A stretch of 64,000 bases of DNA from Chloroflexota bacterium (GTDB lineage Bacteria > Chloroflexota > Anaerolineae > Promineifilales > Promineifilaceae). Shown one piece after another: positions 18,431 through 62,994 of the stretch (within the stretch, counting starts at the first letter, position 1; every line of letters starts with the position of its first letter). A program made the position numbers and the translations under genes. The notes beneath the pieces are model-generated. The model saw nothing but the letters and a program-made list of their open reading frames with translations. It was not told where the DNA came from and did not search any database. The DNA is taken from assembly GCA_020628815.1 (NCBI GenBank), contig JAHDEN010000001.1:36288-100287 (forward strand), written 5' to 3'.

Positions 18431-21400
18431 ATGTCAAAAACGATGATCAAATTCATTTTATGGATGTTGCTCATCACCATTTTTGGTGGTGCCTTTTTGG
18501 GTTCCATTTATGGGATTGGGGCCCTCATCACCTACTTTAATACGGGGGCTGACCCGGCCGCCGCACTGAACATTCACCCCAATGTGCCGCTCGATTGGCC
18601 CGTAAACGTAGAATGGCTGCCGGACGATGCGGACACCGGCCGAGAGCTAGAACCCTTCATACGAGAAAATATCGAAGCCGCCTATATTCGCGCCTGGCTA
18701 CAGCAGGGATTTTCGTACACAAAAGGTGAGCCTCACGGCTTAAAAACATATTTTACCGGCCCCGCTTTGGCGATGGTTGAGGACAACATCAATCATGTAG
18801 CGGAGCAAGATCTGCTGCTGCAACAGGTTGCCACCGATCACTTGCTCCAGCTCCATTTTTACAGTGCGGATGGGACGATTGCGGTGTTTACAGATCGCCA
18901 AGCCCGGGTCGCCCAACATATTAAAGATGGCGCGGGTCAAGAGGTGATGGCTGAAGAAGATTTGGCCGCTTATCAAGTGGTCATGATGGTTGACGAGGGA
19001 AATTGGAAAGTGCGCCACTGGTTACGGCGTGACTTGCAGGATTTTGGAGCTGAGCGGCCGGTTGATGCTGAATCCACCCCTCCGGCCGATGAGCTGGTGC
19101 GGATCGAAAATGGACAGCTAATGTTGGGCGCTGAGCCATATGAAATTCGTGGCTTCAACTATTATCCGCAAGACAATACCTGGACCGACATGTGGACCAA
19201 CTATGAAGGGGATACGATCAGCAATGACATGGCCCTTATCTCTGGAATGGGGATGAACACCATCCGCATTTTTGTTCCATACGAGCAGTTTGGTATCGAC
19301 GAGCCGGTTGATAATGCTCCCGATCAGGTGCAGCGGTTGCGCGATATTTTGAACGAGGCATGGCGTCATGATTTGCGCGTTATCGTCACGCTGTATGACT
19401 TCAAATCTGACTATAACTTGCTAACTTGGCCCAAAGCGGACCGCCATATGGAGGAGCTACTCACAACGTTTAATCGGCATCCGGCCATTTTAGCGTGGGA
19501 CATTAAAAACGAACCTGATTTAGATTATGAGGCGGCCGGGGAAGAGTTAGTCAATATTTGGCTCAAGCATGCGGTTGACCAAGCCCGCATCTACGATCCG
19601 CATCATCTTATAACGATTGGATGGGCCCACGCTGAAAATGCGGACGAGATGGCGCAGATGGTCGATTTTGTATCGTTCCATTTTTACGCCCCGACATCTG
19701 AATTTATCGATACGGTTACCCGCTTAAAAATTAAAGTTGGAGCCGAAAAACCGATTTTGCTGGGGGAATTCGGACTGCCAACGTGGAACAGCCGCCTTTT
19801 CCCAAACGGGCACAGCGAAGAAGAACAATACAACTATCTGCGAGAGCTTTTGGAGCTGAAGGAGTCTGGCCCCACGGCCGGTTATTTGGCCTGGACGCTG
19901 TATGACTTTACCGATGTGCCAGCGCAGGTTGCGGGTCGCTTGCCGTGGAAACGGAGTCCGCAAAGGCAAATGGGGCTTATCCGACCGGACGGCACGCAAA
20001 AACCGGCGGCCGATCTTTTCAAACTCCCCCTGCCAGACAACCTGCTTTCTACCCCGCTTGAAGAGCCGGGTGGATTAAAGCCGTTTTACCAAACAGTGCT
20101 AATTGGGCTATTTATTATTGCCCTCATCGGAATTTATACTATAAGAAGAATTTGGCTTTATTTAGTCGATCGTTTTGGAGAGGAAATCGAAGTTGGGGAT
20201 GATGCCGATGCCCAAGAACCAGCTTCTGTTACAGAAGGCTCAATCGCATCTGGCCGCAAAATGCTCACCAAACTACGGCGATTGTGGCGAGCGCGCCGAC
20301 TTATCCGCTGGCGTAAACGGCGAGACCGGCGATATGCAAAATGGGATAGGCGCAAAGCCAGGCGAACACAACGGCGACACAGACGCAAAGGCAGACGACT
20401 GAAACTGGCCAACGTGGTGCGCATTCTCATCGGCCGGCCGGTCAAAGTAGACAACAGCATCGAAGCATATCTACACCACCCGTCAGCACCATCGGCCAAA
20501 AGCCAGACCGAGCTAGATCAGCTCCACAGTCAAGGATCAGAAACAATGGACAACAACGAATTTAAACCACTCATTGAAATTCCAGAAGGGGTCAAAGAAC
20601 TGCAACAAAAGTTGAATGACGGGGATATGACACCGCTGAGTGGTGAAAGCCATGCTCAAACAGACGAGAAACGGCTAAAAACCAAAGCTGAATTGATTCG
20701 CGAGCTGTTGGCCCCATCAAAACCCAAAAATGCTGAAGTGGATGATGAAGGGCTGACCCCAGAAGACGTTGTTGAATCCACATCAGACACATCTGCTCCG
20801 GCCGAAGAGGCTCTTGATTCGGCAGAGGCTGAAACGGTAGTTTCAATGAAAGTGCCATCTGAAGAAGAAGTTGAAGCGCTGAAAGCCGCAATCGACGAGG
20901 AACAGAGTGCAGATCAATCAGACCCTGAATCTAAAGAAAGCGAGGCAGCTTCGGCCGGTCAAGTCCAAGTTATTCGGGACGAGCTAAAACCGATCAAAAC
21001 CAATATCACCCTTGAAACGGTAACGCCAGACACCACAGAAATTTTCGATTTGGGACAGTATGACTTTGACCCATCTGAGTCACCCGTGCAGTTGGTGTAT
21101 GAAGGGGGTGAGGGTGAAGCCAAAGAGATCACGTTAGACAATTTGGATCCCGATACAACCGACATCTATTACTTGGGTAAAAACGCGGTTGAGCAGGTAA
21201 ATCTCGTCAAAGACCCGGTAGAACCGGTTGAAACAAATGAAACACACGGAGAGGGAGAGATAAAAACGTCAGCTGCACATTATGAAAATGCGCAAGCGTT
21301 GATCGATGGTGCAGATTACTCAACCGGAAACCCTGTGATCCATATCGATTTAAGCGCAGGCCCGGCCGATTTTGCAGGTGCAGAACCAGAAGTAAGCGAA

Positions 21401-21958
21401 ACGGCCGAAGAAAACGCTCCCGCCCAGCCGGGAGATGGGTTCGCGATAGACCATCTGGCGGTTCCGGCCGAAGAGAATGAATTCTCTCAAGAAAATCAAA
21501 CCGCTTGGCCCGCTGTCTCGCCCGATGAGCAACCGGAAGCAAAAATTGTTGAGGCGGTTCAGCCTGCTGAAAACACAGCAGAAAAAGAAGAAAAAGCGCC
21601 TGTTGAGCCAGAAGCAGCTGATGATTCTGCGAAAGCTACAGATCCAGAATCTACGCCAGCCCCTCAGCCAAGCAAAGAGCCAGATCCGATTGCACCGGAT
21701 ATGACCCCCTTAGCAGAGAGTGAAAAAGTGATTGTTGAAATCGATGAGCTTGAGTCAGATGATAAAAAGAACGAATCGAATGAGACGGCCGAAAAAGCGG
21801 AAAAAGCTCCTGCTGAGCCCGACCCCAAAGAGCTTGAGCCAGAAGCAGAATCGGCAGAAGCCGCGCCCAAAGAAGTTGCGCAGCCACCAAGCGAGCCTGA
21901 AGAACAAGGTGGGCTATCCAAAGAAGATATTGAGCGATTCTTTACTTGGGAAGATTAG
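18431..21958 (+). CDS. Membrane-anchored clan GH-A (GH5-like) glycoside hydrolase with a second TM helix, an Arg/Lys-rich segment and a ~500 aa acidic Glu/Pro-rich tail
   Basis: N-terminal TM helix. TIM-barrel motifs IRGFNYYP, NTIRIF, WDIKNEPD (acid/base Glu) and LLGEFGLP (nucleophile Glu). TM helix FYQTVLIGLFIIALIGIYTI. RRLWRARRLIRWRKRRDRRYAKWDRRKARRTQRRHRRKGRR at ~20261-20410, followed by low-complexity E/P/A/K-rich sequence to the stop. Confidence 0.8.
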   Translation: MSKTMIKFILWMLLITIFGGAFLGSIYGIGALITYFNTGADPAAALNIHPNVPLDWPVNVEWLPDDADTGRELEPFIRENIEAAYIRAWLQQGFSYTKGEPHGLKTYFTGPALAMVEDNINHVAEQDLLLQQVATDHLLQLHFYSADGTIAVFTDRQARVAQHIKDGAGQEVMAEEDLAAYQVVMMVDEGNWKVRHWLRRDLQDFGAERPVDAESTPPADELVRIENGQLMLGAEPYEIRGFNYYPQDNTWTDMWTNYEGDTISNDMALISGMGMNTIRIFVPYEQFGIDEPVDNAPDQVQRLRDILNEAWRHDLRVIVTLYDFKSDYNLLTWPKADRHMEELLTTFNRHPAILAWDIKNEPDLDYEAAGEELVNIWLKHAVDQARIYDPHHLITIGWAHAENADEMAQMVDFVSFHFYAPTSEFIDTVTRLKIKVGAEKPILLGEFGLPTWNSRLFPNGHSEEEQYNYLRELLELKESGPTAGYLAWTLYDFTDVPAQVAGRLPWKRSPQRQMGLIRPDGTQKPAADLFKLPLPDNLLSTPLEEPGGLKPFYQTVLIGLFIIALIGIYTIRRIWLYLVDRFGEEIEVGDDADAQEPASVTEGSIASGRKMLTKLRRLWRARRLIRWRKRRDRRYAKWDRRKARRTQRRHRRKGRRLKLANVVRILIGRPVKVDNSIEAYLHHPSAPSAKSQTELDQLHSQGSETMDNNEFKPLIEIPEGVKELQQKLNDGDMTPLSGESHAQTDEKRLKTKAELIRELLAPSKPKNAEVDDEGLTPEDVVESTSDTSAPAEEALDSAEAETVVSMKVPSEEEVEALKAAIDEEQSADQSDPESKESEAASAGQVQVIRDELKPIKTNITLETVTPDTTEIFDLGQYDFDPSESPVQLVYEGGEGEAKEITLDNLDPDTTDIYYLGKNAVEQVNLVKDPVEPVETNETHGEGEIKTSAAHYENAQALIDGADYSTGNPVIHIDLSAGPADFAGAEPEVSETAEENAPAQPGDGFAIDHLAVPAEENEFSQENQTAWPAVSPDEQPEAKIVEAVQPAENTAEKEEKAPVEPEAADDSAKATDPESTPAPQPSKEPDPIAPDMTPLAESEKVIVEIDELESDDKKNESNETAEKAEKAPAEPDPKELEPEAESAEAAPKEVAQPPSEPEEQGGLSKEDIERFFTWED

Positions 21959-22706: not shown

Positions 22707-25034
22707 TTGAACACCCAGATGGAAACCTCTTTTTTACCCCGCAACTCACTCTTTACCACCTGCCTGCTCTCCATCTTTTTATGGGTTGGGTGCGGAAACT
22801 CAGACCCCATCCCCCCACCCCCTGAACCAACGGCCGCACCAACAGAAACGGCTGTACCAACTCCAACGGCCGAGCCTGATCCCTTTGCCATCAGCAATTT
22901 GGCCGGAACCGAATTGGTCTTCCCCACCTCGCTACAGTTTGGCCCCGACGGCCGTCTGTATGTCGCACAACGCAACGGGCAAATCAAGGCTTACACCGTG
23001 GTGCGCAACGGGGCAAACAACTATTCAGTCACCCAAACCGAGACCATCGATCTGATCCGCACCATCCAAAATCACAACGACGACGGCTCACCCCACATCG
23101 GCCGGGATCGTCAACTAACCGGTCTTTACATATTAGGCACGGCCGAAAATCCCCGCCTTTACGTCACGTCTAGCGACTATCGAGAAGGGGGTGGCATCGA
23201 AGGCCAAGACTACGGGCTAGACACAAATTCCGGCGTGATCAGCCTGCTCTCTTGTGTGGATGGGGTGACCCGCGCCAACGGGTGTGAGGGGTGGGAAAAA
23301 GTTGACCTTGTGCGCGGCCTGCCCCGTTCTGAGCAAAATCATTCAACCAACGGAATATTGGTACTCCCAGAGCAAAACGTGATCTATGTGGCTCAGGGTG
23401 GTTTTACCGATACCGGTGCCCCATCCCGCTCGTTGGGCTTCACGGCCGAAACCGCGCTCTCGGCCGCGATCCTCAAAATCGACCTGGACTTGATCATGAG
23501 CCTGCCCACCCAAACCGACCCGTGGGGACAAGCGTACAAATACAATTTGCCCACGCTCAACACCGTTTTATCGCCAAATGGGCCGCACGATTTTGGTGAT
23601 CCTTGGGGTGGCAATGATGGGTTGAATCAGGCTGTCATAGTCGAAAATGGCCCGGTTCAGCTCTTTGCCAGCGGCTTTAGAAACCCATTTGACCTGCTAC
23701 TCACCTCGGCCGGACATTTGCTTACCGTAGACAACGGCTCAAATTTTGATTGGGGCGGCTATCCCGAATATGAAGAAAGCTATGGGTGTACCAATAACGT
23801 TCTGGATGGAGATCCTGGCTCAACAACACCAGGGCCAAATCCGGCCGATTACCCATCCAGCATAAAGCTGCACGATGGGCAAAACGGGACCAGTGTTAGC
23901 GACCGGCAGCCGGATAAACCGGCCGAAAATATCGCGGGGCTGCACCTGATCACAGAAGGGTATTACGCCGGACACGCCAACCCGACCCGAGGCAATCCGG
24001 CCGGAGCTGGCATCTATCTGCACGACAACACCACCGATGTGGGTGAATGGCTGGGGCCAGATGATCGGCGCCTGCCTGAAGCATGGCCTCCGGTTCCGGC
24101 TGATCGCGCCAATCCGGTTGAATGTGATTTTCAAGGTCCGATTGTGGATGATTCCGCAATCGCAAATTTAGGCCCTTCGACCAACGGATTGACCGAATAC
24201 ACCGCATCCAACCTAAATGGCGCCCTGCAAGGGGTGATTTTGGGGCCGTCATACACCAACGATATTTTTCAGGTTCGCCTGACCAAAGATGGTAAGGTGG
24301 CGACCAATTGCCCCACTGACCTAATGGAACCCTGCTTAGATCCGTTTGCCAGCGGCTTTGGATCGGTCCCGCTTGATATCCGTGCGATTGGGGATAGCGG
24401 CGTTTTCCCCGGCACGGTGTGGGTCACAAATCATCTGTCTGGGGTGATTAATATTTTCGAGCCACGAGATTACACGGCCGATCAACCGGTTCAACTCCCG
24501 GCCGGTACACCTGCCCCCGAACCTGAACCCGAAGAACGACCTTTTGTCTATGTGGAAGGGGAGTTGGTTGCCTGTGTCAACATCGGTGGCCCCGAAATAG
24601 TTGGGCAAGATGGGCGCACCTTCATGGCCGAGGATGCCAATCCCGCTTGGATACGGGACGGTAAACAATCAGAAACAATTACAGATATAGCAAATACAGA
24701 AGATGATGCGCTTTTCCAGACAGACCGCTGGGGGCCAATGGAGCTTTTTATTCCTGTACCTGAGCCAGGCGTTTATATTGTGGAGCTGTTCTTTGCAGAG
24801 ATTTTTTACGGGGTGAACACCGATTCGGCCGAAGACCAGCGGGTGTTTAACGCAAACATAGAAGGGTTCCCTGCGCTGCGCGATTATGATATCAATCAAG
24901 CGGCCGGTGGCCCCGCAATCGCGATTGTGGAGGCGTTTGAAACAACCACGTTTGATACAAACGTAAACATAAGCTTGCTAAAAGGACCGGCCGATAATCC
25001 CAAGCTTTCGGCCGTTTGCGTGACCCAACCTTAA
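22707..25034 (+). CDS. Lipoprotein: soluble glucose/sorbosone-dehydrogenase-like beta-propeller fused to a C-terminal malectin-like carbohydrate-binding domain
   Basis: Lipobox (FLWVGC). 'LQFGPDGRLYVAQRNGQIKAY' and 'GFRNPFDL' are typical of SGDH-type propellers. The C-terminal 'VELFFAEIFYGVNTDSAEDQRVFNANIEG' is typical of malectin domains. Confidence 0.75.
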   Translation: MNTQMETSFLPRNSLFTTCLLSIFLWVGCGNSDPIPPPPEPTAAPTETAVPTPTAEPDPFAISNLAGTELVFPTSLQFGPDGRLYVAQRNGQIKAYTVVRNGANNYSVTQTETIDLIRTIQNHNDDGSPHIGRDRQLTGLYILGTAENPRLYVTSSDYREGGGIEGQDYGLDTNSGVISLLSCVDGVTRANGCEGWEKVDLVRGLPRSEQNHSTNGILVLPEQNVIYVAQGGFTDTGAPSRSLGFTAETALSAAILKIDLDLIMSLPTQTDPWGQAYKYNLPTLNTVLSPNGPHDFGDPWGGNDGLNQAVIVENGPVQLFASGFRNPFDLLLTSAGHLLTVDNGSNFDWGGYPEYEESYGCTNNVLDGDPGSTTPGPNPADYPSSIKLHDGQNGTSVSDRQPDKPAENIAGLHLITEGYYAGHANPTRGNPAGAGIYLHDNTTDVGEWLGPDDRRLPEAWPPVPADRANPVECDFQGPIVDDSAIANLGPSTNGLTEYTASNLNGALQGVILGPSYTNDIFQVRLTKDGKVATNCPTDLMEPCLDPFASGFGSVPLDIRAIGDSGVFPGTVWVTNHLSGVINIFEPRDYTADQPVQLPAGTPAPEPEPEERPFVYVEGELVACVNIGGPEIVGQDGRTFMAEDANPAWIRDGKQSETITDIANTEDDALFQTDRWGPMELFIPVPEPGVYIVELFFAEIFYGVNTDSAEDQRVFNANIEGFPALRDYDINQAAGGPAIAIVEAFETTTFDTNVNISLLKGPADNPKLSAVCVTQP

Positions 25035-28253: not shown

Positions 28254-29148
28254 ATGAGCGAAGAACTAAGATTTGACGGCCGTGTAGCTATCGTCACCGG
28301 AGCAGGTGGCGGATTGGGCGCTGAGTATGCAAAAATTTTAGCCGCACGCGGTGCCAGCGTGGTTGTGAACGACCTTGGTGGCTCTGTCAACGGACAGGGT
28401 GGCGATAACTCTGCGGCCGATCGCGTCGTCAACGAGATCAAAGCGGCCGGTGGTGAAGCTGTTGCCAACTACGAAAGCGTTGAAGACGGTGAACGGATTG
28501 TTGAGCAAGCGATGGACACATTTGGCAAAATCGACATTCTCATCAACAACGCCGGGATTCTGCGCGACAAATCTTTTGCAAAAATGAGCGAAGAGGAATG
28601 GTCTTCTGTCTATCGGGTTCATCTGTATGGCTCTTTCAAAACCCGCGGCTTGGCCCCACATGCGTGCGGGCGGCTACGGCCGGATGGTGATGGCCGCTTC
28701 ATCTTCAGGCGCATATGGCAACTTTGGTCAAGCCAACTATGGCGCCATGAAAATGGGATTGATCGGTCTAATCCGTACCCTAGCCATTGAAGGAATGAAG
28801 TACGACATCAAATCAAACGCTATTTTGCCCTACGGTGGCACCCGCATGACTGAAGGACTCGTCCCTGAAAATGTGTACAAAGCGACAGCGCCTGAAAATG
28901 CGGCTCCAATGGTGGCGTATTTGTGTCACGAAAGCTTTAAAGATAGCGGCCAAGCGTATGAAGTGGGCGGTGGATTTATGTCTCAAATCAGATGGCAGCG
29001 CTCAAAAGGGCATCTTTTCCCGTTAGATGGTGGCATTACAATCGAAAATATCGCAGCCAATTGGGACAGCGTAACTGACTTTAGTCAACCCGCTTACCCC
29101 ACATCTGCGGCCGATGCCTATGCTGAAATCATCAAAAACGCTGGCTAG
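28254..29148 (+). pseudogene. Short-chain dehydrogenase/reductase (MFE-2-type hydroxyacyl-CoA dehydrogenase-like) interrupted by a +1 frameshift
   Basis: Frame A gives TGAGGGLG...NNAGILRD...VHLYGSFK. Frame B continues [15 protein letters not shown]...[18 protein letters not shown] (catalytic YxxxK). The switch falls at the AAAACCC run, 28638-28644. Confidence 0.7.
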
Positions 29149-33961: not shown

Positions 33962-34624
33962 TTAAATTTTAATAACTCCCATATTGGTTGCCTTACTAAG
34001 GGCCTCGGTCCGATTTGATACATCTAACTTCCGATAAATATTTGCCAAATGGCTCTGCACCGTGCGACTGCTAATCCCTTTTTCAACCCCTATTTGCTTA
34101 TTCGTCTTCCCGTTTTTCAACATCTGCAACATCTCCACCTCCCGATCTGTGAGTGGATTTTTTGTTTCTTGAGCAAGTTGACCAATCAACTTTTGGGCAA
34201 TGGCTGGGGACAAGGCTGATCGGCCGCCATGAATCGATTTTATAGCAGAGATTAACTCTATTGGGGTTGCAGATTTCAGCATGTAACCATCGGCACCAGT
34301 GGATAAAACTGCGGAAATATACGGATCATCATCATAAGCAGATAGGATCAAGACCCGAATGTTTGGGTATGTATGCCGGATAAATTTAGTTGTTTCTATC
34401 CCGTTCATTTCCGGCATTTTTATATCTAAAATAGCAACATCAACTTTTGAGTTGCAGGTAGAAAGATAATCGATGACCTCTTGACCATTCGAAGCTTCAT
34501 AGATGACCTGAACTTCATCCGTCTTTTCAACAAACTGACGAATGCCCGCTCTGACCATCGCATGATCGTCGGCTAACACCGCTCGTATTTTCATTGATTT
34601 ATTTATCATGTCTGATTCAATCAT
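33962..34624 (-). CDS. NarL/LuxR-family response regulator
   Basis: REC motifs (LADDH, VAILDIKMPEMNG, YMLK) and a C-terminal LuxR helix-turn-helix (LTDREVEMLQMLKNGKTNKQIG). Its ATG overlaps the upstream gene's TGA (ATGA). Confidence 0.9.
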   Translation of the reverse strand: MIESDMINKSMKIRAVLADDHAMVRAGIRQFVEKTDEVQVIYEASNGQEVIDYLSTCNSKVDVAILDIKMPEMNGIETTKFIRHTYPNIRVLILSAYDDDPYISAVLSTGADGYMLKSATPIELISAIKSIHGGRSALSPAIAQKLIGQLAQETKNPLTDREVEMLQMLKNGKTNKQIGVEKGISSRTVQSHLANIYRKLDVSNRTEALSKATNMGVIKI

Positions 34625-35013
34625 TCGATCAATTCGTCCAGAGTTGGTTTCAAAAGATCGGCCGGTTGCGAGCCAAAAAATCGATTAGTTATCTCCCCAT
34701 CTTCCGAAATAAGAGCAACGGACGGGTGGCCCCGGAGTGCTAGGTCATTTTGAATTTTCTGATTTGCGGGCTCATTTGCATCAAACCGATAAAATTTAAT
34801 TGATGGATACTCTTCTTCAAGCCCATTCACGATGGGAGCAAACTCTTCTCACGGCGCTCACGGGTCGGTAAAGAATAAGACAAAGGCGGGGCCATCGAAA
34901 GTGACTTCTTGTGCAGACTCAACTTCGGCCGAATCTGGCTCAGATCGAGAACAACTTGCTAACCCGATCGCTAATAAACTAAAAAAAAATGCAATAAATT
35001 TCCACTTTGTCAT
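34621..35013 (-). CDS. Thioredoxin-fold lipoprotein with two in-frame TGA codons at the CxxC positions (putative UxxU selenoprotein, 130 aa)
   Basis: Minus-strand translation from the ATG at 35013: MTKWKFIAFFFSLLAIGLASC (lipobox) ...GPAFVLFFTDP-[TGA 34860-34858]-A-P-[TGA 34851-34849]-EEFAPIVNGLEEEY...LRGHPSVALISEDGE (cis-Pro loop). This aligns with FWAxWCGPCxxxAPxl of thioredoxins. There are no other stops and the frame is preserved. The ORF track shows only the distal 69 aa. Confidence 0.6.
34816..34842 (-). promoter_or_regulatory. Candidate bacterial SECIS-like hairpin downstream of the two TGA codons
   Basis: mRNA UUUG-CU-CCCAU [CGUGA] AUGGG-CU-UGAA: a 5-bp upper stem, a 2x2 internal loop, a 4-bp lower stem (two G-U pairs) and a GU-containing apical loop that starts 17 nt and 26 nt after the two UGAs. 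Confidence 0.3.
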
Positions 35014-35026
35014 ATTGATTTACTTG

Positions 35027-35530
35027 TTATCTTTGAGCTTGAAGTTCCTGAATGCTAGGAGACCATGTGCTTTTAATATAACCCAATACCGCATCAATTT
35101 CCTCGTCGCTTAACATGTCTTCATAGGCAGGCATGTTACTTTCAGCCTGCATATTTGGGTCAAGTTCTCGGGTCCCATATCGGATACGGTCGAGCAAATA
35201 CTGGTCATTGTGATGCCACGTATGTCCATCTTCGTCATGCGGTGGTGCTCTGAATGTCCCATCTGCGTTGCGCTGTTGCCAATCTTCTTGACCTTCAAGA
35301 TTCTCTCCGTGACACGACGCACAATTTTCTGCATAAACAATTTTACCAAGTTCTAAACCATCGGCGCTTAAAAGGGTTGAGCCAACCATGATTGATTCAG
35401 CCGCCCGATTTTCATCACGCCTAATCGCCAATATTCCCATACCAAACATGATAACTGTGGCAAAAATGATAATGGGGAGAATTGGGGCACCACTTTTATT
35501 TGAAGACCGATTTTTTTTGTTCTTTGCCAT
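35027..35530 (-). CDS. Membrane-anchored class I c-type cytochrome
   Basis: N-terminal TM helix, heme-binding CASCHG motif and a distal Met ligand region (SNMPAY). Ends 13 nt upstream of the Trx-like gene start. Confidence 0.8.
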   Translation of the reverse strand: MAKNKKNRSSNKSGAPILPIIIFATVIMFGMGILAIRRDENRAAESIMVGSTLLSADGLELGKIVYAENCASCHGENLEGQEDWQQRNADGTFRAPPHDEDGHTWHHNDQYLLDRIRYGTRELDPNMQAESNMPAYEDMLSDEEIDAVLGYIKSTWSPSIQELQAQR

Positions 35531-37561: not shown

Positions 37562-38182
37562 TTACAAAACCATATTTATTCGATGGGAGAGCTCTGCGAG
37601 CATGGTGCTTGTAGCCCCCCAAATTTTATGGTCAGCATAAGCAAAAAACGGCACCTCAAACGGGCCGGTAGGCAAGCCTACATCGATTGGCTCTCGGCGG
37701 CGGTTGGTTTCACCTAAAAAGTGTGAATACGGGATTTCAAGGACTTCAGCAACCTCTGCCTCGCTAAGGGTGTATGTCGGCCGTTGATCTATCCATCCTG
37801 CAAAACAGTGCACGTAGAAACGTGACGGCGGAATGTACAGCGGGTCGATCCGGCCGACAATGGTGATCTTATCGCTCTCCACCCCGACCTCTTCCCATGT
37901 TTCACGCAGTGCCGTCTGTTCTAACGTTTCACCGGGATCTTGCTTGCCGCCAGGAAAAGCGATTTGGCCCGGGTGGCTACGCATTGTGGTCGGCCGTCTT
38001 AGCAGGATGGTGCTGAGCGACTCCCCATCTGGAAAGAACAGGGCCAAAACCGCACCAATGCGATGATCGGCCGGCGGTGGTGCCAAAGCACGGTCGGCCG
38101 GAACCATGGGCAAACGAACCGGTACCGGATCAAAATCTGGCTGGTTTAAAGCATTTTTTAAGAGTGAAACATCGAAATTCAT
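37562..38182 (-). CDS. NUDIX hydrolase, CoA pyrophosphatase type
   Basis: 'LLRRPTTMRSHPGQIAFPGGKQDPGETLEQTALRETWEEVG' combines the CoAse signature with the Nudix box. Confidence 0.8.
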   Translation of the reverse strand: MNFDVSLLKNALNQPDFDPVPVRLPMVPADRALAPPPADHRIGAVLALFFPDGESLSTILLRRPTTMRSHPGQIAFPGGKQDPGETLEQTALRETWEEVGVESDKITIVGRIDPLYIPPSRFYVHCFAGWIDQRPTYTLSEAEVAEVLEIPYSHFLGETNRRREPIDVGLPTGPFEVPFFAYADHKIWGATSTMLAELSHRINMVL

Positions 38183-46854: not shown

Positions 46855-47796
46855 ATGCGCTTTCGATTTTTGCTTTTTATTTCGGCGTTCGCCATCCTAT
46901 TAGCCGGTTTTGCACTGATGGGTCCCGCCGCCGCCGAGCCGGTCCCCCCGGCCGATTTTGATTTCCCCTACGCCGAGGACGGGAATTTTGATCATATCCT
47001 GTTTGTCTACGAAGATTTTGACGAGAATGAAGGGGGATATTTTGAACCAGAGGCCGGTCTGCAAACGACCGGTTGGGGAGAGTATCTTGATATTTTGACC
47101 CCCGGAACCACCATTGAGGGAGAGTTTGAGTGGATTACAGATAACACCATCGACGGCCGGGCATTCCGTTGCGCCTTAACCGGTGGAGATGCTTTTAACA
47201 ACTATTTTTGTGCAAATAACGTGGCTCGTCTAAACGGCAGCGTGGGGGACTATCCTTATGCAGGCTTAAATTGGCTAGAGTTTGAAATGGACTTTTACGT
47301 TGAGGGACACATCGACTGCACGTTTAGCACCAAATCAGACATGGAAGGGATTGAATGGGTATGGCAATTTACAGAGCCGCCCGACAGCTACGGTTTTGGC
47401 ATAGTCTACGCCCCGTACCGAGGGCAACTGCGCCATTGGACCGAACAGGGAACTTGGGAGCCTTTTGATCCGCCGATTGAATATATCTGTATAGAGGGGA
47501 ACCAGTGGCACCATGTTAAGTTTGTAACCAGCATGCTGTTTGACAAAATTAACTACCACTACATGATTTTAGATGATCAGGTTATCGATTTTAATGGGCA
47601 ACAGCTCGACAAATTCCCGACTTTTGAAGAATGGAAAGACACCTTCATTCAGATGGGGATTCAGGTTGATTCAACGTTTGGAGTGGATGATCCGGCCAGA
47701 GCACGGCCGGTTGCAATGGTCGTTGACAATGTGACTTTAACAGGGCTAAAGTTAACCTTCGACAACCACATTTACCTGCCAGCGGTCCAAAAATAA
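46855..47796 (+). CDS. Secreted protein of unknown function (313 aa) ending in IYLPAVQK
   Basis: Signal peptide MRFRFLLFISAFAILLAGFALMGPAAA. No recognisable catalytic motif. Confidence 0.7.
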   Translation: MRFRFLLFISAFAILLAGFALMGPAAAEPVPPADFDFPYAEDGNFDHILFVYEDFDENEGGYFEPEAGLQTTGWGEYLDILTPGTTIEGEFEWITDNTIDGRAFRCALTGGDAFNNYFCANNVARLNGSVGDYPYAGLNWLEFEMDFYVEGHIDCTFSTKSDMEGIEWVWQFTEPPDSYGFGIVYAPYRGQLRHWTEQGTWEPFDPPIEYICIEGNQWHHVKFVTSMLFDKINYHYMILDDQVIDFNGQQLDKFPTFEEWKDTFIQMGIQVDSTFGVDDPARARPVAMVVDNVTLTGLKLTFDNHIYLPAVQK

Positions 47797-60171: not shown

Positions 60172-60409
60172 AAATTCAAAATTTATCAACTGTGACGAAG
60201 ATAAGTATTTTGCAGTTTGTTTCCAGAGAGTTAGCGGCGGTGCAAGCTAATAACAAAAGCAATTGAAATCTACTTCTGAGTTGTTTGCGCAAAACGCAAA
60301 CCGGTTAGGACCGTTATATCCTCCAGAGTATAGTCAAAGCTTAGAGCAATGACTTAAAATTCAGGTGGTACCGCGACGCCCCTTCGCCCTGAAGCGAAGG
60401 GGCGTTTTG
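60172..60409 (+). promoter_or_regulatory. T-box riboswitch leader (Ser specifier) with an intrinsic terminator
   Basis: AGAGAG and GGUGCAA Stem-I elements. GAAA-UCU-A specifier candidate at 60269-60271. T-box sequence AAAUUCAGGUGGUACCGCG (60355-60375). Terminator CGCCCCTTCGC/GCGAAGGGGCG+TTTT (60377-60409). Confidence 0.8.
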
Positions 60410-60477: not shown

Positions 60478-61845
60478 ATGATAGACATAAATTTGATTCG
60501 AAATCAGACCGATTGGGTGCGTGAGCAATTGGTCAAGTTAAATGACACCAAGGCACCGATAGACACCGTCTTAGAGCAAGACACTATCCGCCGAGAGGTA
60601 ATTGCAGAGGTTGAAGAGCTGCGACGGGAGCGGAATGTAGCCAGTAAAGCGATTGGCAAAGCGATGGGTGGCTTGAAAAAAATGGAAGCCGACCTTAAAA
60701 AAGCTCAGGCGGCCGGTGAAGCTACGGCTGAGTTAGAAGCTCAAGTTGCTCAGGCTCAAAAAGAAGCGGAAGCTGCCAAAGATAAACCACGCAAGATCGG
60801 GGATCGTATTGATGAGCTGCAAGAAAAGCTAAACAAAGCTGAAGCCCGTTTACGAGAAGCGATGCTGTGGGTGCCGAACATGCCGCACGAAAGTGTTCCG
60901 GTGGCGATGAGTGACGAAGAAAATGTAAATGGGGCACCACAGGGAACACCCATCCCACAATTTGATTTTGAACCGATACCCCATTGGGATTTGGGACCAC
61001 AGTTAGGGCTGATTGACTTTGAGCGAGGGGTAAAACTGAGCGGAAGCCGGTTTTATGTTTTACAAGGGGTTGGTGCCCGGCTGCAGCGGGCGGTGATCCA
61101 GTTTATGCTCAACCATCATGTAGATGAGCATGGCTACACGGAGATTTATCCGCCGTTTATGGTACGTAGCGAAATGTTTGAAGGGGCGGCTCAGCTACCT
61201 AAATTTGCTGAAAACATTTATCGTGATGCTGAAGAAGATTTCATGTTCTTGGGCACGGCCGAAATCGCGCTAACAAATTTGCATAGAGATGAGATTTTAG
61301 AGCATACGGATTTACCGAAAAAGTATGTCGCTTATACACCTTGTTTCCGACGTGAAAAAATGAGCGCCGGCCGAGATGTACGCGGCATCAAGCGTGGCCA
61401 TCAGTTTGATAAGGTGGAAATGTACCGCTTTACCAAGCCAGAAGACAGCTATGCGGCGCTTGAAGAACTCCTGACCGAAGCGACAGATATCGCTGAAGCG
61501 TTGGAGTTGCCGTACCGCATCGTTGATATTGTAAGTGGCGACCTTGGGTTTGCGGCCGCCAAGAAATATGATGTTGAGATTTGGGCGGCCGGTTGCCAAG
61601 AGTGGCTTGAAGTGAGCAGCGCCAGTAACTGTGAAGGGTTCCAAGCTCGCCGGGCCAATATTCGGTATCGGCCGGATGAAGGTGGACGGCCGCAGTATGT
61701 TCATACCCTAAATGCCAGCGGGCTAGCATTGCCCCGCGTCATGATCGCCATCATGGAAAACAATCAGCAAAAAGATGGCAGCATTGTAATACCCAAGGTT
61801 TTGCGTCCATACATGGGTGGCCTAGAGGTAATCGAACCGGCATAA
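60478..61845 (+). CDS. serS: Seryl-tRNA synthetase
   Basis: Class II motifs (FRRE, GHQFDKVE, ASNCEGFQARR, LNASGLALPR), an N-terminal coiled-coil arm, and a length of 455 aa. Confidence 0.95.
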   Translation: MIDINLIRNQTDWVREQLVKLNDTKAPIDTVLEQDTIRREVIAEVEELRRERNVASKAIGKAMGGLKKMEADLKKAQAAGEATAELEAQVAQAQKEAEAAKDKPRKIGDRIDELQEKLNKAEARLREAMLWVPNMPHESVPVAMSDEENVNGAPQGTPIPQFDFEPIPHWDLGPQLGLIDFERGVKLSGSRFYVLQGVGARLQRAVIQFMLNHHVDEHGYTEIYPPFMVRSEMFEGAAQLPKFAENIYRDAEEDFMFLGTAEIALTNLHRDEILEHTDLPKKYVAYTPCFRREKMSAGRDVRGIKRGHQFDKVEMYRFTKPEDSYAALEELLTEATDIAEALELPYRIVDIVSGDLGFAAAKKYDVEIWAAGCQEWLEVSSASNCEGFQARRANIRYRPDEGGRPQYVHTLNASGLALPRVMIAIMENNQQKDGSIVIPKVLRPYMGGLEVIEPA

Positions 61846-61857
61846 ATTTGTCATCAG

Positions 61858-61916
61858 TTGGCTGTTATCAAATACGGAAGGGTTGCTATACTCCAAGCCA
61901 TTGATAACAGCCAACA
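61858..61916. repeat. Perfect 15-bp inverted repeat (hairpin with a 29-nt loop) downstream of serS
   Basis: GTTGGCTGTTATCAA (61858-61872) and TTGATAACAGCCAAC (61902-61916). No T-run follows. Confidence 0.6.
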
Positions 61917-62039
61917 ACAACTAGTGTTTCAACCATGCTACTATGATGGATTAGAAAAGCGAAGAAACACTTAAAGTCACGACGTTTCCGATAAGATTAC
62001 CGATCATTTTATCCTAGTCGTGACACTAGCGAGGTAAAC

Positions 62040-62705
62040 ATGGACTATAAACTTAAGCTTGTCAGCTTTAAATTATGACCTTACGTTCAGCGTTCGGTCA
62101 TAACGCTAAACCATTTGGGAGTTCCCTATGATATTGAGTACATCGATTTAGCTAACAAACCAGACTGGTTTTTAGAGATTTCGCCATTGGGAAAAGTGCC
62201 TGTTGTACAGGTAAATGACGGGGCATCGATATTTGAGTCTGCCGTGATCAACGAATTTGTCTCAGAAATCAATCCGCCCGTTATGCATCCGGCCGATCCT
62301 GTTGAAAAAGCTCGTAACCGGGCATGGATCGAATACGGGTCGGGCATGTTGGGCACAAATTTTCGATTACGGAATTCGAAAACGGCCGAAGAGTTTGCTG
62401 AAAATCGCAGCAAATTAATCGACCAGCTCAAAAAGGTTGAAGAACAAATAGATGAAGGCCCTTTCTTTAACGGGGAGGAATTTAGCCTCATCGACAGTTC
62501 GTACACACCTTTGTTTATGCAGCTGGATCTGATGAATAAGATTCATAACTTTGACATTTATGCAGAGACCCCAAAAGTCGGCCGATGGGCTGAGATGATG
62601 CTGTCTTTAGACGCGGTCAAAAGTTCAGTTGTCGAGGATTTTCCTGAGCTATTTACAGCCAGCATTTCTAAACGGGATGGATACTTGGGCCAGTTTTTGA
62701 ACTAG
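62040..62705 (+). CDS. Glutathione S-transferase-family protein with an in-frame TGA at the catalytic Cys position (putative selenoprotein, 221 aa)
   Basis: The ATG at 62040 is preceded by GAGG. Translation MDYKLKLVSFKL-[TGA 62076-62078]-PYVQRSVITLNHLGVPYDIEYIDLANKPDWFLEISPLGKVPVV matches the 'SFKLCPYVQR...DLANKPDWF..SPLGKVP' N-terminal domain of Cys-type GSTs. It is in the same frame as the track ORF 62115..62705. Confidence 0.65.
62085..62111 (+). promoter_or_regulatory. Candidate bacterial SECIS hairpin 6 nt downstream of the GST TGA
   Basis: GUUCAGCGUU [CGGUCAU] AACGCUAAAC: 9 bp with one C-A mismatch. The apical loop contains GGUC, as in the E. coli fdhF SECIS loop, and starts 16 nt after the UGA. 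Confidence 0.45.
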
Positions 62706-62767
62706 GCAAGCAGCCATAATCAAGCAAGGCAGACCCATACGGTCATTCACACTTGAACAGATTTTCA

Positions 62768-62803
62768 ACCTCGGGGGTTTTTAAGGCTCCCGAGGTTTTT
62801 TTT
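62768..62803 (+). terminator. Rho-independent terminator after the GST gene
   Basis: ACCTCGGG ... CCCGAGGT followed by TTTTTTTT. Confidence 0.75.
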
Positions 62804-62994
62804 ATAGATTAGGGCTTACGCATTTGGTGTTACAAGTTTGATTTTTGCGTAAATCCTATAGATTTAGCATTTGCTTCGAAAGCTCTTCAAGAGCAAACGT
62901 CCTAAAACACAACTTGTCACTTGCTTGCCTCCAACTTCTCACCCTTCCCTCATCACATTCGGCCGCACAACCTGCTATAATCTGATCCGCATTT

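What the first reader, a model, noticed from the sequence alone, without database searches (positions are those of the whole stretch)
62040..62705. GST-family gene with TGA replacing the catalytic Cys of the CPYV motif (second putative selenoprotein)
The ORF track starts this gene at 62115. The same frame is open back to an ATG at 62040 (GAGG Shine-Dalgarno upstream) except for one TGA at 62076-62078.

The upstream 25 codons supply exactly the missing beta1-alpha1 of a Cys-type GST/glutaredoxin-2-like N-terminal domain: LVSFKL-*-PYVQRSVITL. Characterised homologs read SFKL-C-PYVQR at this position.

A 9-bp hairpin (62085-62111) begins 6 nt after the TGA. Its loop, CGGUCAU, contains the GGUC tetranucleotide found in the E. 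coli fdhF SECIS apical loop.

Together with the UxxU thioredoxin, this gives three candidate Sec codons in 64 kb, all at redox-Cys positions.
Basis: partly seen in the sequence, partly recalled or inferred. Interest (0 to 1): 0.7.

Follow-up and report, generated by a model that had tools for sequence, protein, structure and literature searches.

The report
Selenocysteine-containing glutathione transferase gene, mis-annotated short
This is a real gene for a glutathione-transferase-like enzyme whose catalytic cysteine is replaced by selenocysteine (encoded by TGA plus a small RNA hairpin); this type of selenoprotein has been known from ocean metagenomes since 2005, so it is a sound annotation correction in a new bacterial lineage, not a new kind of thing.

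Summary
ATG 62040, an in-frame TGA at 62076-62078 and an open frame to TAG 62703-62705 encode a 221-residue GST-fold protein. The TGA falls on the catalytic Cys column (Cys32 of human GSTO1).

- **Conserved TGA.** All 14 loci of the window's Chloroflexota clade (12 distinct) keep the TGA, the ATG 12 codons upstream and a Shine-Dalgarno. The annotated TTG start at 62115 is not conserved.
- **Sec/Cys split.** In 165 family loci, 35 have TGA and 130 have Cys at this column.
- **RNA-level constraint.** Codons 17-22 are nucleotide-invariant in all 12 orthologs, while about 90% of the other conserved codons vary synonymously (permutation p about 1e-5). These codons form a 6-bp/7-nt-loop hairpin (62089-62107, loop CGGUCAU). 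Another Sec-GST lineage has a hairpin in the same columns with three compensatory pairs.
- **Second selenoprotein gene.** A thioredoxin-like gene with a UAPU motif lies in the same window, and its orthologs keep both TGAs.
The Cys homologs are not characterised.
- **Not tested.** No Sec machinery lies in the window, so its presence in the genome could not be checked.

GST-like selenoproteins are an established family (Zhang 2005, 2008; 2026 review). Verdict: new member of a known kind, with modest interest.

The parts
61857..61915 (+). 15-bp perfect inverted repeat (61857-61871 / 61901-61915) enclosing a promoter-like site (TTATCA-16 nt-TGcTATACT, 61865-61892). It is the likely promoter/operator region of the GST gene, or part of the serS terminator.
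   Evidence: TATACT and the GTTGACTGTTAT...ATAACAGTCAAC repeat recur upstream of the orthologs in L163, L169 and L171. Function is inferred, not tested.
62031..62034 (+). Shine-Dalgarno GAGG, 5 nt before the ATG.
   Evidence: GGAG or GAGG sits at the same place in all 13 orthologous loci that have readable upstream sequence.
62040..62705 (+). Full coding sequence of the Sec-containing GST-like protein: 221 codons plus a TAG stop, with Sec at codon 13.
   Evidence: The AlphaFold model of the ortholog is; the GST fold is confirmed against PDB.
62076..62078 (+). TGA read as selenocysteine. The column corresponds to the catalytic Cys of the CP[FYW]V motif and to Cys32 of human GSTO1.
   Evidence: 35 TGA and 130 TGY at this column in 165 family loci. 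All 14 loci of the window's clade have TGA.
62089..62107 (+). Conserved SECIS-type hairpin. The stem is AGCGUU/AACGCU (6 bp). The loop is CGGUCAU (62095-62101). The stem starts 10 nt after the UGA and the loop 16 nt after it.
   Evidence: Codons 17-22 are codon-invariant in 12 distinct orthologs, and this is the only invariant run longer than 2 codons in the gene (permutation p = 1e-5). The helix is 100% paired, and L027 shows 3 compensatory pairs in the same columns.
62085..62111 (+). The outer three pairs and the C-A mismatch are not conserved.
   Evidence: the helix of columns 10-12 with 34-36 is only 72% paired, and pair 12-34 is unpaired in 10 of 12 sequences. Energy is -6.2 kcal/mol.
62073..62102 (+). 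Alternative helix in free mRNA: UUAUGACC pairs with GGUCAUAA. It buries the UGA and the SECIS loop and is mutually exclusive with the SECIS hairpin.
   Evidence: -13.4 kcal/mol over 62070-62115. UGACC/GGUCA can still pair in all of clade A but is broken in L027. Its significance is unknown.
62115..62117 (+). TTG used as the start by the ORF track. It is not a real start codon.
   Evidence: The same codon is TTA, CTA or CTG in orthologs, and nothing resembling a Shine-Dalgarno lies upstream. A product starting here would lack beta1, the catalytic residue and alpha1.
62767..62807 (+). Intrinsic terminator after the gene.
   Evidence: a 14-pair stem followed by a T-run.

Best explanation
The gene at 62040-62705 encodes a 221-residue cytosolic-type glutathione transferase of the Cys-type (Omega-like) kind. 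In this protein the nucleophilic active-site residue at the N-cap of helix alpha1 is selenocysteine.

Proposed decoding (inferred from established bacterial Sec biology):
- Translation starts at ATG 62040.
- When UGA 62076-62078 reaches the A site, the 19-nt hairpin 62089-62107 sits just outside the mRNA channel.
- The hairpin presents its CGGUCAU loop to the SelB-GTP-Sec-tRNA(Sec) complex, which inserts Sec instead of RF2 terminating.

Proposed chemistry (inferred by analogy with Cys-type GSTs):
- The selenolate, next to an intact glutathione-binding site (K40, V53-P54, E66-S67), attacks a disulfide, glutathionyl or oxidised substrate.
- This gives a selenenyl-sulfide with glutathione.
- A second thiol resolves the intermediate, so the enzyme acts as a thiol-transferase, reductase or deglutathionylase rather than conjugating.

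Shown here: the gene structure, the Sec/Cys column, conservation of the TGA, RNA-level constraint on the hairpin, and the fold. Inferred: SelB recruitment, actual Se incorporation, and the substrate.
For: 1. **Frame and domain.** The frame is open from ATG 62040 through one TGA to TAG. GST_N_2 scores E = 1.9e-18, and the GST_N match begins at residue 4.
2. **Active-site column.** The TGA column equals the Cys of SFKLCP[FY]VQRS in homologs. It also equals Cys32 of human GSTO1 1eem, with GSH-site residues K59, V72-P73 and E85-S86 aligned to K40, V53-P54 and E66-S67. These residues are invariant in 42 homologs.
3. **Conserved TGA.** All 14 loci (12 distinct) of the window's clade, from different MAGs and samples, have the TGA, an ATG 12 codons upstream and a Shine-Dalgarno. 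Changes in codons 7-12 upstream of the TGA are purely synonymous (LVSFKL).
4. **RNA-level constraint.** Of 115 amino-acid-invariant degenerate codons, only 12 are codon-invariant. Six of these are the consecutive codons 17-22 that make up the hairpin. Permutation p = 1e-5.
5. **Same hairpin in other Sec lineages.**
   - The helix of columns 14-19 with 27-32 is 100% paired. In L027, a separate Sec-GST, three pairs are changed on both sides.
   - The proteobacterial Sec clade has a helix starting at the same column, with one compensatory pair.
   - G22-U23 sits in the loop at the same distance from the UGA in all three clades.
6. **Fit to the published bSECIS model.** The hairpin meets three of the four criteria of the model in PMC13188914: 7-nt loop, 6-bp stem, G in the first two loop positions followed by G, and 16-nt spacing.
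7. **Independent sign of Sec decoding in the same genome.**
   - A thioredoxin-like gene carries TGA-GCG-CCG-TGA at the CxxC position (34849-34860, minus strand), and the protein matches Pfam Thioredoxin.
   - Its orthologs keep both TGAs and the downstream hairpin CCCAU-CGUGA-AUGGG.
   - G22-U23 again falls after the second TGA.
8. **No code change.** tmk ends at TGA, and no other in-frame TGA interrupts the 43 long ORFs.
9. **Known family.** GST is an established selenoprotein family.
Against: - No selA, selB, selD or tRNA-Sec lies in the 64-kb window. The rest of the genome could not be searched.
- No Rfam family matches the hairpin.
The bSECIS model's cut-off is -7.5.
- A more stable alternative helix competes with it in free RNA.
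- Raw folding energy downstream of the codon does not separate Sec from Cys homologs (Mann-Whitney p = 0.51). A difference appears only after GC correction (p = 0.002), and that test ignores phylogeny.
- Within clade A the hairpin is invariant, so the covariation evidence rests on one outgroup sequence (L027) and one proteobacterial sequence (L052).
- No experimental data on Se incorporation or on any member of this GST subfamily were found.
Confidence: 0.88

Rival explanations
1. The TGA is a nonsense mutation. The gene is a pseudogene, or the functional product is the 196-aa protein starting at TTG 62115, as the ORF track and public annotations have it.
For: - The ORF lister and public gene calls give 196-207-aa products.
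- TGA is one step from TGY, so it is the expected nonsense mutation of a Cys codon.
- No Sec machinery is seen in the window.
Against: - The TGA is kept in 12 distinct orthologs that have diverged at about 90% of synonymous sites.
- The 12 codons upstream remain under protein-level purifying selection, with a conserved ATG and Shine-Dalgarno.
- The TTG is TTA, CTA or CTG in orthologs.
- A 196-aa product lacks beta1, the catalytic residue and alpha1 of the thioredoxin-like domain.
- The rest of the gene shows no decay: there are no further stops, and the G-site residues are intact.
Confidence: 0.03
2. The TGA is translated, but not as selenocysteine. The lineage reads UGA as Trp, Gly or Cys, either through a changed code or through near-cognate or suppressor read-through, and the hairpin merely stimulates read-through.
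For: - Gene callers translated five orthologs with W at this column, using code 4.
- TGA is an unusually rare stop in this window: 2 of 43 long ORFs, against about 20% in relatives.
- Sec machinery was not demonstrated.
Against: - The W calls are on contigs of 0.9-1.6 kb, and those loci translate to '*' under code 11.
- About 19,000 codons of long ORFs in the window contain no in-frame TGA except at redox-Cys positions of two thiol oxidoreductases.
- tmk and the Trx-like gene terminate at TGA.
- Relatives use TGA stops at 5 of 26 ORFs.
- Trp or Gly at the nucleophile position would kill a Cys-type GST.
- The hairpin meets three of the four bSECIS criteria (loop and stem size, loop G, spacing), with the MFE criterion borderline, and a GU at the same distance recurs in a second gene.
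Confidence: 0.05
3. The invariant 18 nt serve a different RNA or DNA function, and are only incidentally hairpin-forming. One candidate is the alternative helix UUAUGACC/GGUCAUAA, which would mask the UGA as a translational attenuator or switch.
For: - The alternative helix is the minimum-free-energy fold: -13.4 against -5.3 kcal/mol for the SECIS core in the same 46 nt.
- UGACC/GGUCA can pair in all clade A members.
- Invariance of the loop codons UCG GUC AUA fits either model.
Against: - The alternative helix is broken at 3 of 5 pairs in L027, and it was not the MFE fold in most of the proteobacterial Sec clade (L029 pairs UGACC with a more distal GGUCG). The hairpin starting at column 14 is present in all three clades.
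- The 5' arm of the alternative helix is fixed by coding (UGA-CC), so its 'conservation' is uninformative.
- A ribosome decoding the UGA must unwind anything that includes the UGA, leaving only the downstream hairpin. The same argument is made for the lower fdhF stem in PMC4513850.
- This rival does not exclude Sec insertion; it would add a layer to it.
Confidence: 0.04

Closest known systems
GST-like selenoprotein family of marine bacteria (Zhang, Fomenko & Gladyshev 2005, PMC1088965: 4 sequences, COG0625; Zhang & Gladyshev 2008, PMC2398784: 12 sequences against 1,036 Cys homologs; listed as 'GST-like protein, PF13409' in the 2026 review PMC13188914)
   Same: - The GST fold with a PF13409 (GST_N_2) match.
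- A single Sec encoded by an in-frame UGA with widespread Cys homologs.
- A small hairpin with a G in the apical loop immediately downstream of the UGA.
- Predicted by the same Sec/Cys-pair logic.
   Different: - The window's clade (SFKL-U-PYVQRS, Chloroflexota/Anaerolineae MAGs) is separate on an NJ tree from the large proteobacterial Sec clade (T-U-PWVQRA), with Cys-containing lineages between them.
- Identity to that clade is only about 36-40%, and the SECIS loop is 7 nt instead of about 12 nt.
- I infer, but did not verify, that the proteobacterial clade is the one found in surface-ocean data.
Omega-class glutathione transferases (human GSTO1-1, PDB 1eem; Drosophila pyrimidodiazepine synthase, PDB 10ha)
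   Same: - Best sequence matches among solved structures: E = 1e-22 to 1e-23 and TM about 0.85.
- The nucleophile sits in a C-P-[FY] motif at the N-cap of alpha1 (Cys32).
- The K59, V72-P73 and E85-S86 glutathione contacts are conserved.
- Known Omega chemistry (thiol transfer, dehydroascorbate and S-phenacylglutathione reduction through a mixed disulfide) is the model for the mechanism proposed here. That chemistry is stated from general knowledge of the class.
   Different: - Sec replaces Cys.
- Identity is only about 26-30%.
- The roughly 19-residue N-terminal extension of GSTO1 is absent: query residue 5 aligns to GSTO1 residue 24.
- Tau-class and DHAR structures match about equally well by fold, so class assignment is loose.
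E. coli fdhF SECIS (bacterial selenocysteine insertion sequence)
   Same: - The hairpin lies within the coding region directly after the UGA.
- The apical loop contains GGUC: positions 21-24 here and 22-25 in fdhF, counting the U of UGA as 1.
- It meets three of the four criteria of the general bSECIS model (loop size, stem length, loop G, 16-nt spacing); the MFE criterion is borderline.
   Different: - The element is much smaller: a 19-nt hairpin with a 6-bp stem and a 7-nt loop, against the roughly 40-nt fdhF hairpin.
- It has no bulged U.
- It has no lower stem continuous with the UGA. Instead there is a mutually exclusive alternative helix.
- Stability is below the -7.5 kcal/mol model threshold when taken alone.

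Membership tests
Bacterial selenoprotein gene (Sec-UGA + bSECIS) | In-frame UGA aligned with Cys in non-seleno homologs (a Sec/Cys pair at a functional residue) | tested here: met
   130 Cys against 35 TGA at the same column in 165 loci. The column corresponds to catalytic Cys32 of GSTO1.
Bacterial selenoprotein gene (Sec-UGA + bSECIS) | TGA-containing orthologs in other organisms, with coding conservation on both sides of the TGA | tested here: met
   14 loci (12 distinct) have the TGA, an upstream ATG and a Shine-Dalgarno. Upstream variation in LVSFKL is synonymous only.
Bacterial selenoprotein gene (Sec-UGA + bSECIS) | bSECIS model criteria i-iii (PMC13188914, Fig. 2A): apical loop of 3-9 nt, upper stem of 4-16 bp, G in the first two loop positions, and 16-37 nt between the UGA and the loop | tested here: met
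   The loop is CGGUCAU (7 nt, with G at position 2 followed by G). The stem is 6 bp. Sixteen nt lie between the UGA and the loop.
Bacterial selenoprotein gene (Sec-UGA + bSECIS) | bSECIS model criterion iv: MFE <= -7.5 kcal/mol | tested here: inconclusive
   Energy is -4.5 kcal/mol for the core and -6.2 for the 27-nt hairpin. It is -10.3 for nt +12 to +61, which includes a second hairpin. The model does not say which stretch is scored.
Bacterial selenoprotein gene (Sec-UGA + bSECIS) | Evolutionary constraint or covariation on the hairpin beyond what coding requires | tested here: met
   A run of six codon-invariant codons has permutation p = 1e-5. L027 shows three compensatory pairs in the same columns.
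Bacterial selenoprotein gene (Sec-UGA + bSECIS) | Sec machinery (selA, selB, selD, tRNA-Sec) in the same genome | not testable with these tools
   None lies in the 64-kb window. The rest of the 121.8-kb contig and the genome could not be retrieved. Indirect support comes from a second TGA-bearing redox gene in the window whose orthologs keep the TGAs. Some Chloroflexi are recorded as having selenoproteins (PMC1794560).
Bacterial selenoprotein gene (Sec-UGA + bSECIS) | Selenium actually incorporated at the UGA position | not testable with these tools
   This needs 75Se labelling or mass spectrometry.
Cytosolic GST superfamily, Cys-type (Omega-like) | N-terminal thioredoxin-like domain plus an all-helical C-terminal domain | tested here: met
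   Pfam GST_N_2, GST_N_3 and GST_N match, with a weaker GST_C_2 match. The AlphaFold model of the ortholog has pLDDT 93.8. TM is 0.83-0.86 to GST structures.
Cytosolic GST superfamily, Cys-type (Omega-like) | Nucleophilic Cys (here Sec) in a C-P-x motif at the N-terminus of alpha1, together with the cis-Pro and Glu-Ser glutathione contacts | tested here: met
   Residue 13 aligns to Cys32, V53-P54 to V72-P73, E66-S67 to E85-S86 and K40 to K59 of 1eem. These residues are invariant in 42 homologs.
Cytosolic GST superfamily, Cys-type (Omega-like) | Omega class proper: an N-terminal extension of about 19 residues that packs against the C-terminal helix | tested here: not met
   The protein starts 4 residues before beta1, and query residue 5 aligns to GSTO1 residue 24. 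It is therefore Omega-like in its active site but not filed as Omega class.
Cytosolic GST superfamily, Cys-type (Omega-like) | Glutathione-dependent thiol-transferase or reductase activity | not testable with these tools
   No member of this bacterial subfamily with biochemical data was found. NCBIfam gives only sub-threshold matches to SspA and GstA models.
GST-like selenoprotein family (Zhang 2005; PF13409 in the 2026 review) | PF13409/COG0625 GST domain carrying one Sec, with widespread Cys homologs | tested here: met
   PF13409 scores E = 1.9e-18, 67 bits against a cut-off of 25. Sec/Cys pairs are shown. The family is described.
GST-like selenoprotein family (Zhang 2005; PF13409 in the 2026 review) | Same phylogenetic lineage as the published ocean sequences | not tested
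   The published sequences (AACY accessions, MEK9676863.1) were not retrievable here. The NJ tree shows three separate Sec groups, and the window's group is distinct from the large proteobacterial one.

The most novel reading that the evidence does not exclude
The Chloroflexota Sec-GST may be an independent Cys-to-Sec conversion served by an unusually small (19-nt) SECIS. Its loop can alternatively pair with the UGA-CC itself, giving a two-state element that hides both the UGA and the SelB-binding loop until a ribosome opens it.

The host genome might also be selenoprotein-rich and shaped by this. The window holds 2 selenoprotein genes and 3 Sec codons among about 45 genes, and TGA is almost avoided as a stop (2 of 43 long ORFs, against about 20% in relatives).
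Probability: 0.12. Interest if true: 0.5.

Novelty: new member of a known kind. Interest (0 to 1): 0.3.

Why it matters
**Annotation.** The gene and all its orthologs in public databases are mis-called. Some are truncated at 196-207 aa and named 'glutathione S-transferase family protein'. Others are translated with Trp at the active site under genetic code 4. Correcting them restores the catalytic residue and the first beta-alpha unit.

**Distribution.** The finding extends a catalogued but biochemically uncharacterised selenoprotein family into Chloroflexota/Anaerolineae. It also shows at least three separate Sec groups within one GST subfamily, which is useful material for studying Cys/Sec exchange.

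**SECIS definition.** The run of six nucleotide-invariant codons defines a minimal SECIS cleanly and could help train SECIS predictors.

It does not open a new question.

Tried and rejected
- **Rfam.** The whole window at gathering threshold gave only the serS T-box. The local region at E <= 10 gave no SECIS or other credible family.
- **tRNA-Sec.** ARAGORN found no tRNA in the window.
- **Sec machinery.** NCBIfam and Pfam scans of 38 other window ORFs (40 queries in all, counting the two GST reads) found no SelA, SelB or SelD.
- **The window's own contig.** Look-ups beyond the window failed because the exact protein is not on record.
- **Metagenome scan (JGI).** It returned no close relative (best 52% identity), only more of the wider family. 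Close relatives came from ENA, Logan and NCBI via exact-protein look-ups.
- **Raw MFE comparison of Sec and Cys homologs.** This was uninformative (p = 0.51), because GC-rich Cys homologs fold as well. I relied on synonymous-site constraint instead.
- **Structure prediction of the conceptual U-to-C protein.** I modelled the 86%-identical ortholog P0002 instead.
- **Genetic-code change (code 4 or 25).** Rejected on ORF integrity and on TGA-terminated tmk.
- **Other in-frame TGAs flanked by long open frames.** I checked the NUDIX gene at 37562-38182, the ORF at 2951-9490, the ORF at 46855-47796 and others. In each the TGA lies just upstream of a normal start, so they are not Sec candidates.
Full report
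**1. The observation**

- GAGG lies at 62031-62034 and ATG at 62040.
- One in-frame TGA lies at 62076-62078.
- The frame is then open to TAG 62703-62705.

The mechanical ORF list starts the gene at TTG 62115, giving 196 aa. The conceptual 221-residue protein, with Cys substituted for the stop, matches three Pfam N-terminal GST models:

| Pfam model | E-value |
|---|---|
| GST_N_2 | 1.9e-18 |
| GST_N_3 | 1.5e-15 |
| GST_N | 4.3e-12 |

- These matches begin at residues 4-13, upstream of the TTG.
- There is also a weaker GST_C_2 match.
- An intrinsic terminator follows the gene at 62767-62807.

**2. Homologs and the TGA column**

A search of 5.8 billion proteins gave thousands of GST-family hits. 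The alignment separates two groups.

Relatives at 56% identity or less (Thiofilum, Competibacteraceae, Beggiatoa, Kordiimonas and others) read SFKLCP[FY]VQRS, with Cys at the TGA column.

Relatives at 71% identity or more fall into two kinds:
- Truncated proteins that start just after that column (MQRSV...).
- Full-length proteins with 'W' at that column.

The W forms sit on contigs of 0.9-1.6 kb. Their loci do not translate to the database protein under code 11. They are therefore code-4 gene calls across a TGA.

I fetched DNA for the whole clade: two Chloroflexota MAG loci from the genome collection and eleven loci from ENA, Logan and NCBI. Together with the window, all 14 loci (12 distinct sequences) have three features in common:
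- TGA at the same codon.
- An ATG exactly 12 codons upstream.
- GGAG or GAGG 5-8 nt before that ATG, wherever upstream sequence is readable.

Upstream of the TGA, codons 7-12 (LVSFKL) vary only synonymously. Leu appears as CTT, CTA, CTC and TTA at codon 7 and as TTA, TTG and CTT at codon 12. That stretch is therefore translated and under purifying selection.

The TTG at 62115 is TTA, CTA or CTG in orthologs, so it is not a conserved start.

Across all 165 family loci in which the motif could be located, 35 carry TGA and 130 carry TGY at this column. An NJ tree places the TGA forms in three separate groups:
- the window's Chloroflexota clade, in which every member has TGA;
- a single other Chloroflexota sequence (L027);
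- a large proteobacterial clade (T-U-PWVQRA) that has a few Cys members nested within it.

**3. The hairpin**

I count the U of UGA as position 1.

*Synonymous constraint.*
- The 12 distinct orthologs are invariant at every nucleotide of codons 17-22 (CAG CGT TCG GTC ATA ACG, window 62088-62105).
- The neighbouring codons use up to four synonymous forms.
- Gene-wide, only 12 of 115 amino-acid-invariant degenerate codons are codon-invariant, and six of them are this run. The next longest invariant run is two codons.
- Random placement of the 12 invariant codons gave a run of six or more in 2 of 200,000 trials.

*Structure.*
- The invariant stretch forms A14-U32: stem AGCGUU/AACGCU and loop CGGUCAU (window 62089-62107).
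- On an alignment of the clade plus L027, this helix is 100% paired.
- L027 changes three of the six pairs on both sides: G-C to A-U, U-A to C-G, and U-A to A-U.
Pair 12-34 is unpaired in 10 of 12 sequences.

*Other Sec clades.*
- The proteobacterial Sec clade has a 6-7-bp helix starting at the same column, with a roughly 12-nt loop beginning CGUGAU.
- It shows one compensatory pair, in L052.
- In all three clades a G-U dinucleotide occupies positions 22-23.

*Comparison with E. coli and the published model.*
- The E. coli fdhF SECIS, which I recalled and then verified at 100% identity in 5,419 of 5,426 E. coli genomes, has its GGUC loop at positions 22-25. Here GGUC is at 21-24.
- The published bSECIS model asks for four things (PMC13188914): a 3-9-nt loop, a 4-16-bp stem, a G in the first two loop positions usually followed by G or U, and 16-37 nt from the UGA to the loop.
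- All of those four are met.
- The model's energy threshold of -7.5 kcal/mol is not met by the hairpin alone. The hairpin scores -4.5 to -6.2 kcal/mol, so I score that criterion as inconclusive.

*Limits of the energy evidence.*
- Raw folding energy does not separate Sec from Cys homologs.
- Some Cys members nested in the proteobacterial Sec clade still carry the hairpin.
- The evidence for function is therefore the synonymous-site constraint and the positional conservation, not stability.

*A competing fold.*
- In naked RNA, UUAUGACC (62073-62080) pairs with GGUCAUAA (62095-62102).
- That fold scores -13.4 kcal/mol, against -5.3 for the SECIS core in the same 46 nt.
- Its 5' arm is fixed by coding.
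- It is broken in L027.
- It was not the MFE fold for most of the proteobacterial clade; L029 instead pairs UGACC with a more distal GGUCG.
- A ribosome with the UGA in its A site must have unwound it. The same reasoning is applied to the lower fdhF stem in PMC4513850.
- I treat it as an unexplained extra, not a rival to Sec decoding.

**4. Is UGA decoded as Sec in this organism?**

The window contains no tRNA. It contains no Rfam RNA other than the T-box before serS. None of the 38 other window ORFs scanned is a Sec-pathway protein. I could not retrieve the rest of the contig.

Three lines of indirect evidence support Sec decoding.

- **A second candidate gene in the window.**
  - It is a thioredoxin-like lipoprotein on the minus strand, next to a cytochrome c gene.
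  - It reads ...FFTDP-TGA-GCG-CCG-TGA-EEF... at the CxxC position, with TGAs at 34858-34860 and 34849-34851.
  - It matches Pfam Thioredoxin at E = 1.9e-8.
  - Its only database relatives are 71-72-aa fragments called from just after the motif.
  - The three loci fetched for one of these relatives (P0123) show both TGAs, the same gene order, and the hairpin CCCAU-CGUGA-AUGGG conserved while flanking codons change synonymously.
  - Counted from the second TGA, that loop again places G-U at positions 22-23.
- **No sign of a changed genetic code.**
  - The 43 long ORFs (about 19,000 codons) are uninterrupted.
  - tmk and the Trx-like gene end in TGA.
  - Relatives use TGA stops at 5 of 26 ORFs.
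- **Precedent in the phylum.** Chloroflexi are recorded as containing selenoproteins (PMC1794560).

**5. What the protein is**

*Fold and active site.*
- An AlphaFold model of ortholog P0002 (86% identical; pLDDT 93.8, pTM 0.90) shows beta1 at residues 5-9, residue 13 at the N-cap of alpha1 (14-25), and a standard GST fold.
- The best sequence matches among solved structures are Omega-class GSTs at E = 1e-22 to 1e-23.
- Foldseek gives TM 0.83-0.86 to Omega, Tau and DHAR enzymes.

*Correspondence with human GSTO1 (1eem)*; the window residues are invariant across 42 homologs:

| Window residue | GSTO1 residue |
|---|---|
| 13 (Sec) | Cys32 |
| K40 | K59 |
| V53-P54 | V72-P73 |
| E66-S67 | E85-S86 |

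*Classification and function.*
- The roughly 19-residue N-terminal extension of Omega enzymes is missing, so I call the protein Omega-like rather than Omega class.
- By analogy, it is a thiol-transferase or reductase that cycles through a selenenyl-sulfide with glutathione.
- The substrate is unknown.

**6. Comparison with what is known**

Glutathione S-transferase is already a listed prokaryotic selenoprotein family:
- 4 sequences in the Sargasso Sea study (PMC1088965).
- 12 sequences against 1,036 Cys homologs in GOS (PMC2398784).
- 'GST-like protein, PF13409' in a 2026 review, which notes that the functions remain uncharacterised (PMC13188914).

The window's gene is therefore a new member of a known kind. 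What is new is modest:
- a Chloroflexota lineage that appears to be a separate Sec group from the proteobacterial one;
- a very compact SECIS that is well defined by its sequence constraint;
- systematic mis-annotation of the whole clade.

**7. Verdict**

Confidence that this is a genuine Sec-encoding GST gene is about 0.88. The residual doubt is that the Sec machinery and selenium incorporation are undemonstrated. Interest is about 0.3.

Noticed in passing
window 34621-35013, minus strand (TGAs at 34858-34860 and 34849-34851): A thioredoxin-like lipoprotein gene has a U-A-P-U motif in place of CxxC and sits next to a cytochrome c gene (35027-35530). Orthologs L172-L174 keep both TGAs, the gene order and a CCCAU-CGUGA-AUGGG hairpin after the second TGA. 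Database proteins for it are only 71-72-aa fragments. The gene itself ends in TGA.
   Followed up: partly
window, all long ORFs: Stop-codon usage among 43 non-overlapping ORFs of at least 120 aa is 23 TAA, 18 TAG and 2 TGA, and one of the two TGA cases is a frameshifted gene. Loci from close relatives show 5 of 26 TGA, and other loci of 43-52% GC show 28 of 121. TGA stops therefore seem depleted in this genome.
   Followed up: partly
window 62073-62102: In free RNA the most stable fold pairs UUAUGACC (which includes the Sec UGA) with GGUCAUAA (the SECIS loop). It scores -13.4 kcal/mol and is mutually exclusive with the conserved SECIS hairpin. It can form in all clade members but not in other Sec-GST lineages.
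   Followed up: partly
window 61857-61915: A perfect 15-bp inverted repeat (GTTGGCTGTTATCAA / TTGATAACAGCCAAC) encloses a promoter-like TTATCA-16-TGcTATACT between serS and the GST gene. The same arrangement (GTTGACTGTTAT ... TATACT ... ATAACAGTCAAC) recurs in orthologous loci L163, L169 and L171. Two more 8-bp inverted repeats follow (61923-61971 and 61976-62024).
   Followed up: partly
window 60183-60394: A T-box leader (Rfam RF00230, 119 bits) lies upstream of seryl-tRNA synthetase (60478-61845). The gene order serS, GST, LysM protein, response regulator is conserved in L167 and L171; serS-GST adjacency alone also appears to hold in L161, L163, L166 and L169, judged from serS-like C-terminal coding sequence upstream of the GST.
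   Followed up: no
window 28254-29148: A short-chain dehydrogenase gene is split between two reading frames (28254-28790 and 28627-29148). This is an apparent frameshift: a pseudogene, an assembly error, or programmed.
   Followed up: no
proteins P0002, P0003, P0005, P0006, P0008 (loci L161-L166): Public protein databases hold these orthologs with Trp at the Sec position. Gene callers chose genetic code 4 on short contigs. This is a general artefact that could be mined to find selenoprotein genes.
   Followed up: yes
loci L058, L122, L102, L089: Cys-containing members nested inside the proteobacterial Sec-GST clade still carry the SECIS-like hairpin (for example L058, CAGCGCGCC...GCGCGC). This suggests recent Sec-to-Cys reversion, or a hairpin partly imposed by the repeated Arg-Ala codons.
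   Followed up: partly
window 2951-9490, 13632-17072, 18431-21958, 22707-25034: Four very large ORFs (2179, 1146, 1175 and 775 aa). The last three had no NCBIfam match at E <= 1e-10; the first (2951-9490) was not scanned. None was examined further.
   Followed up: no
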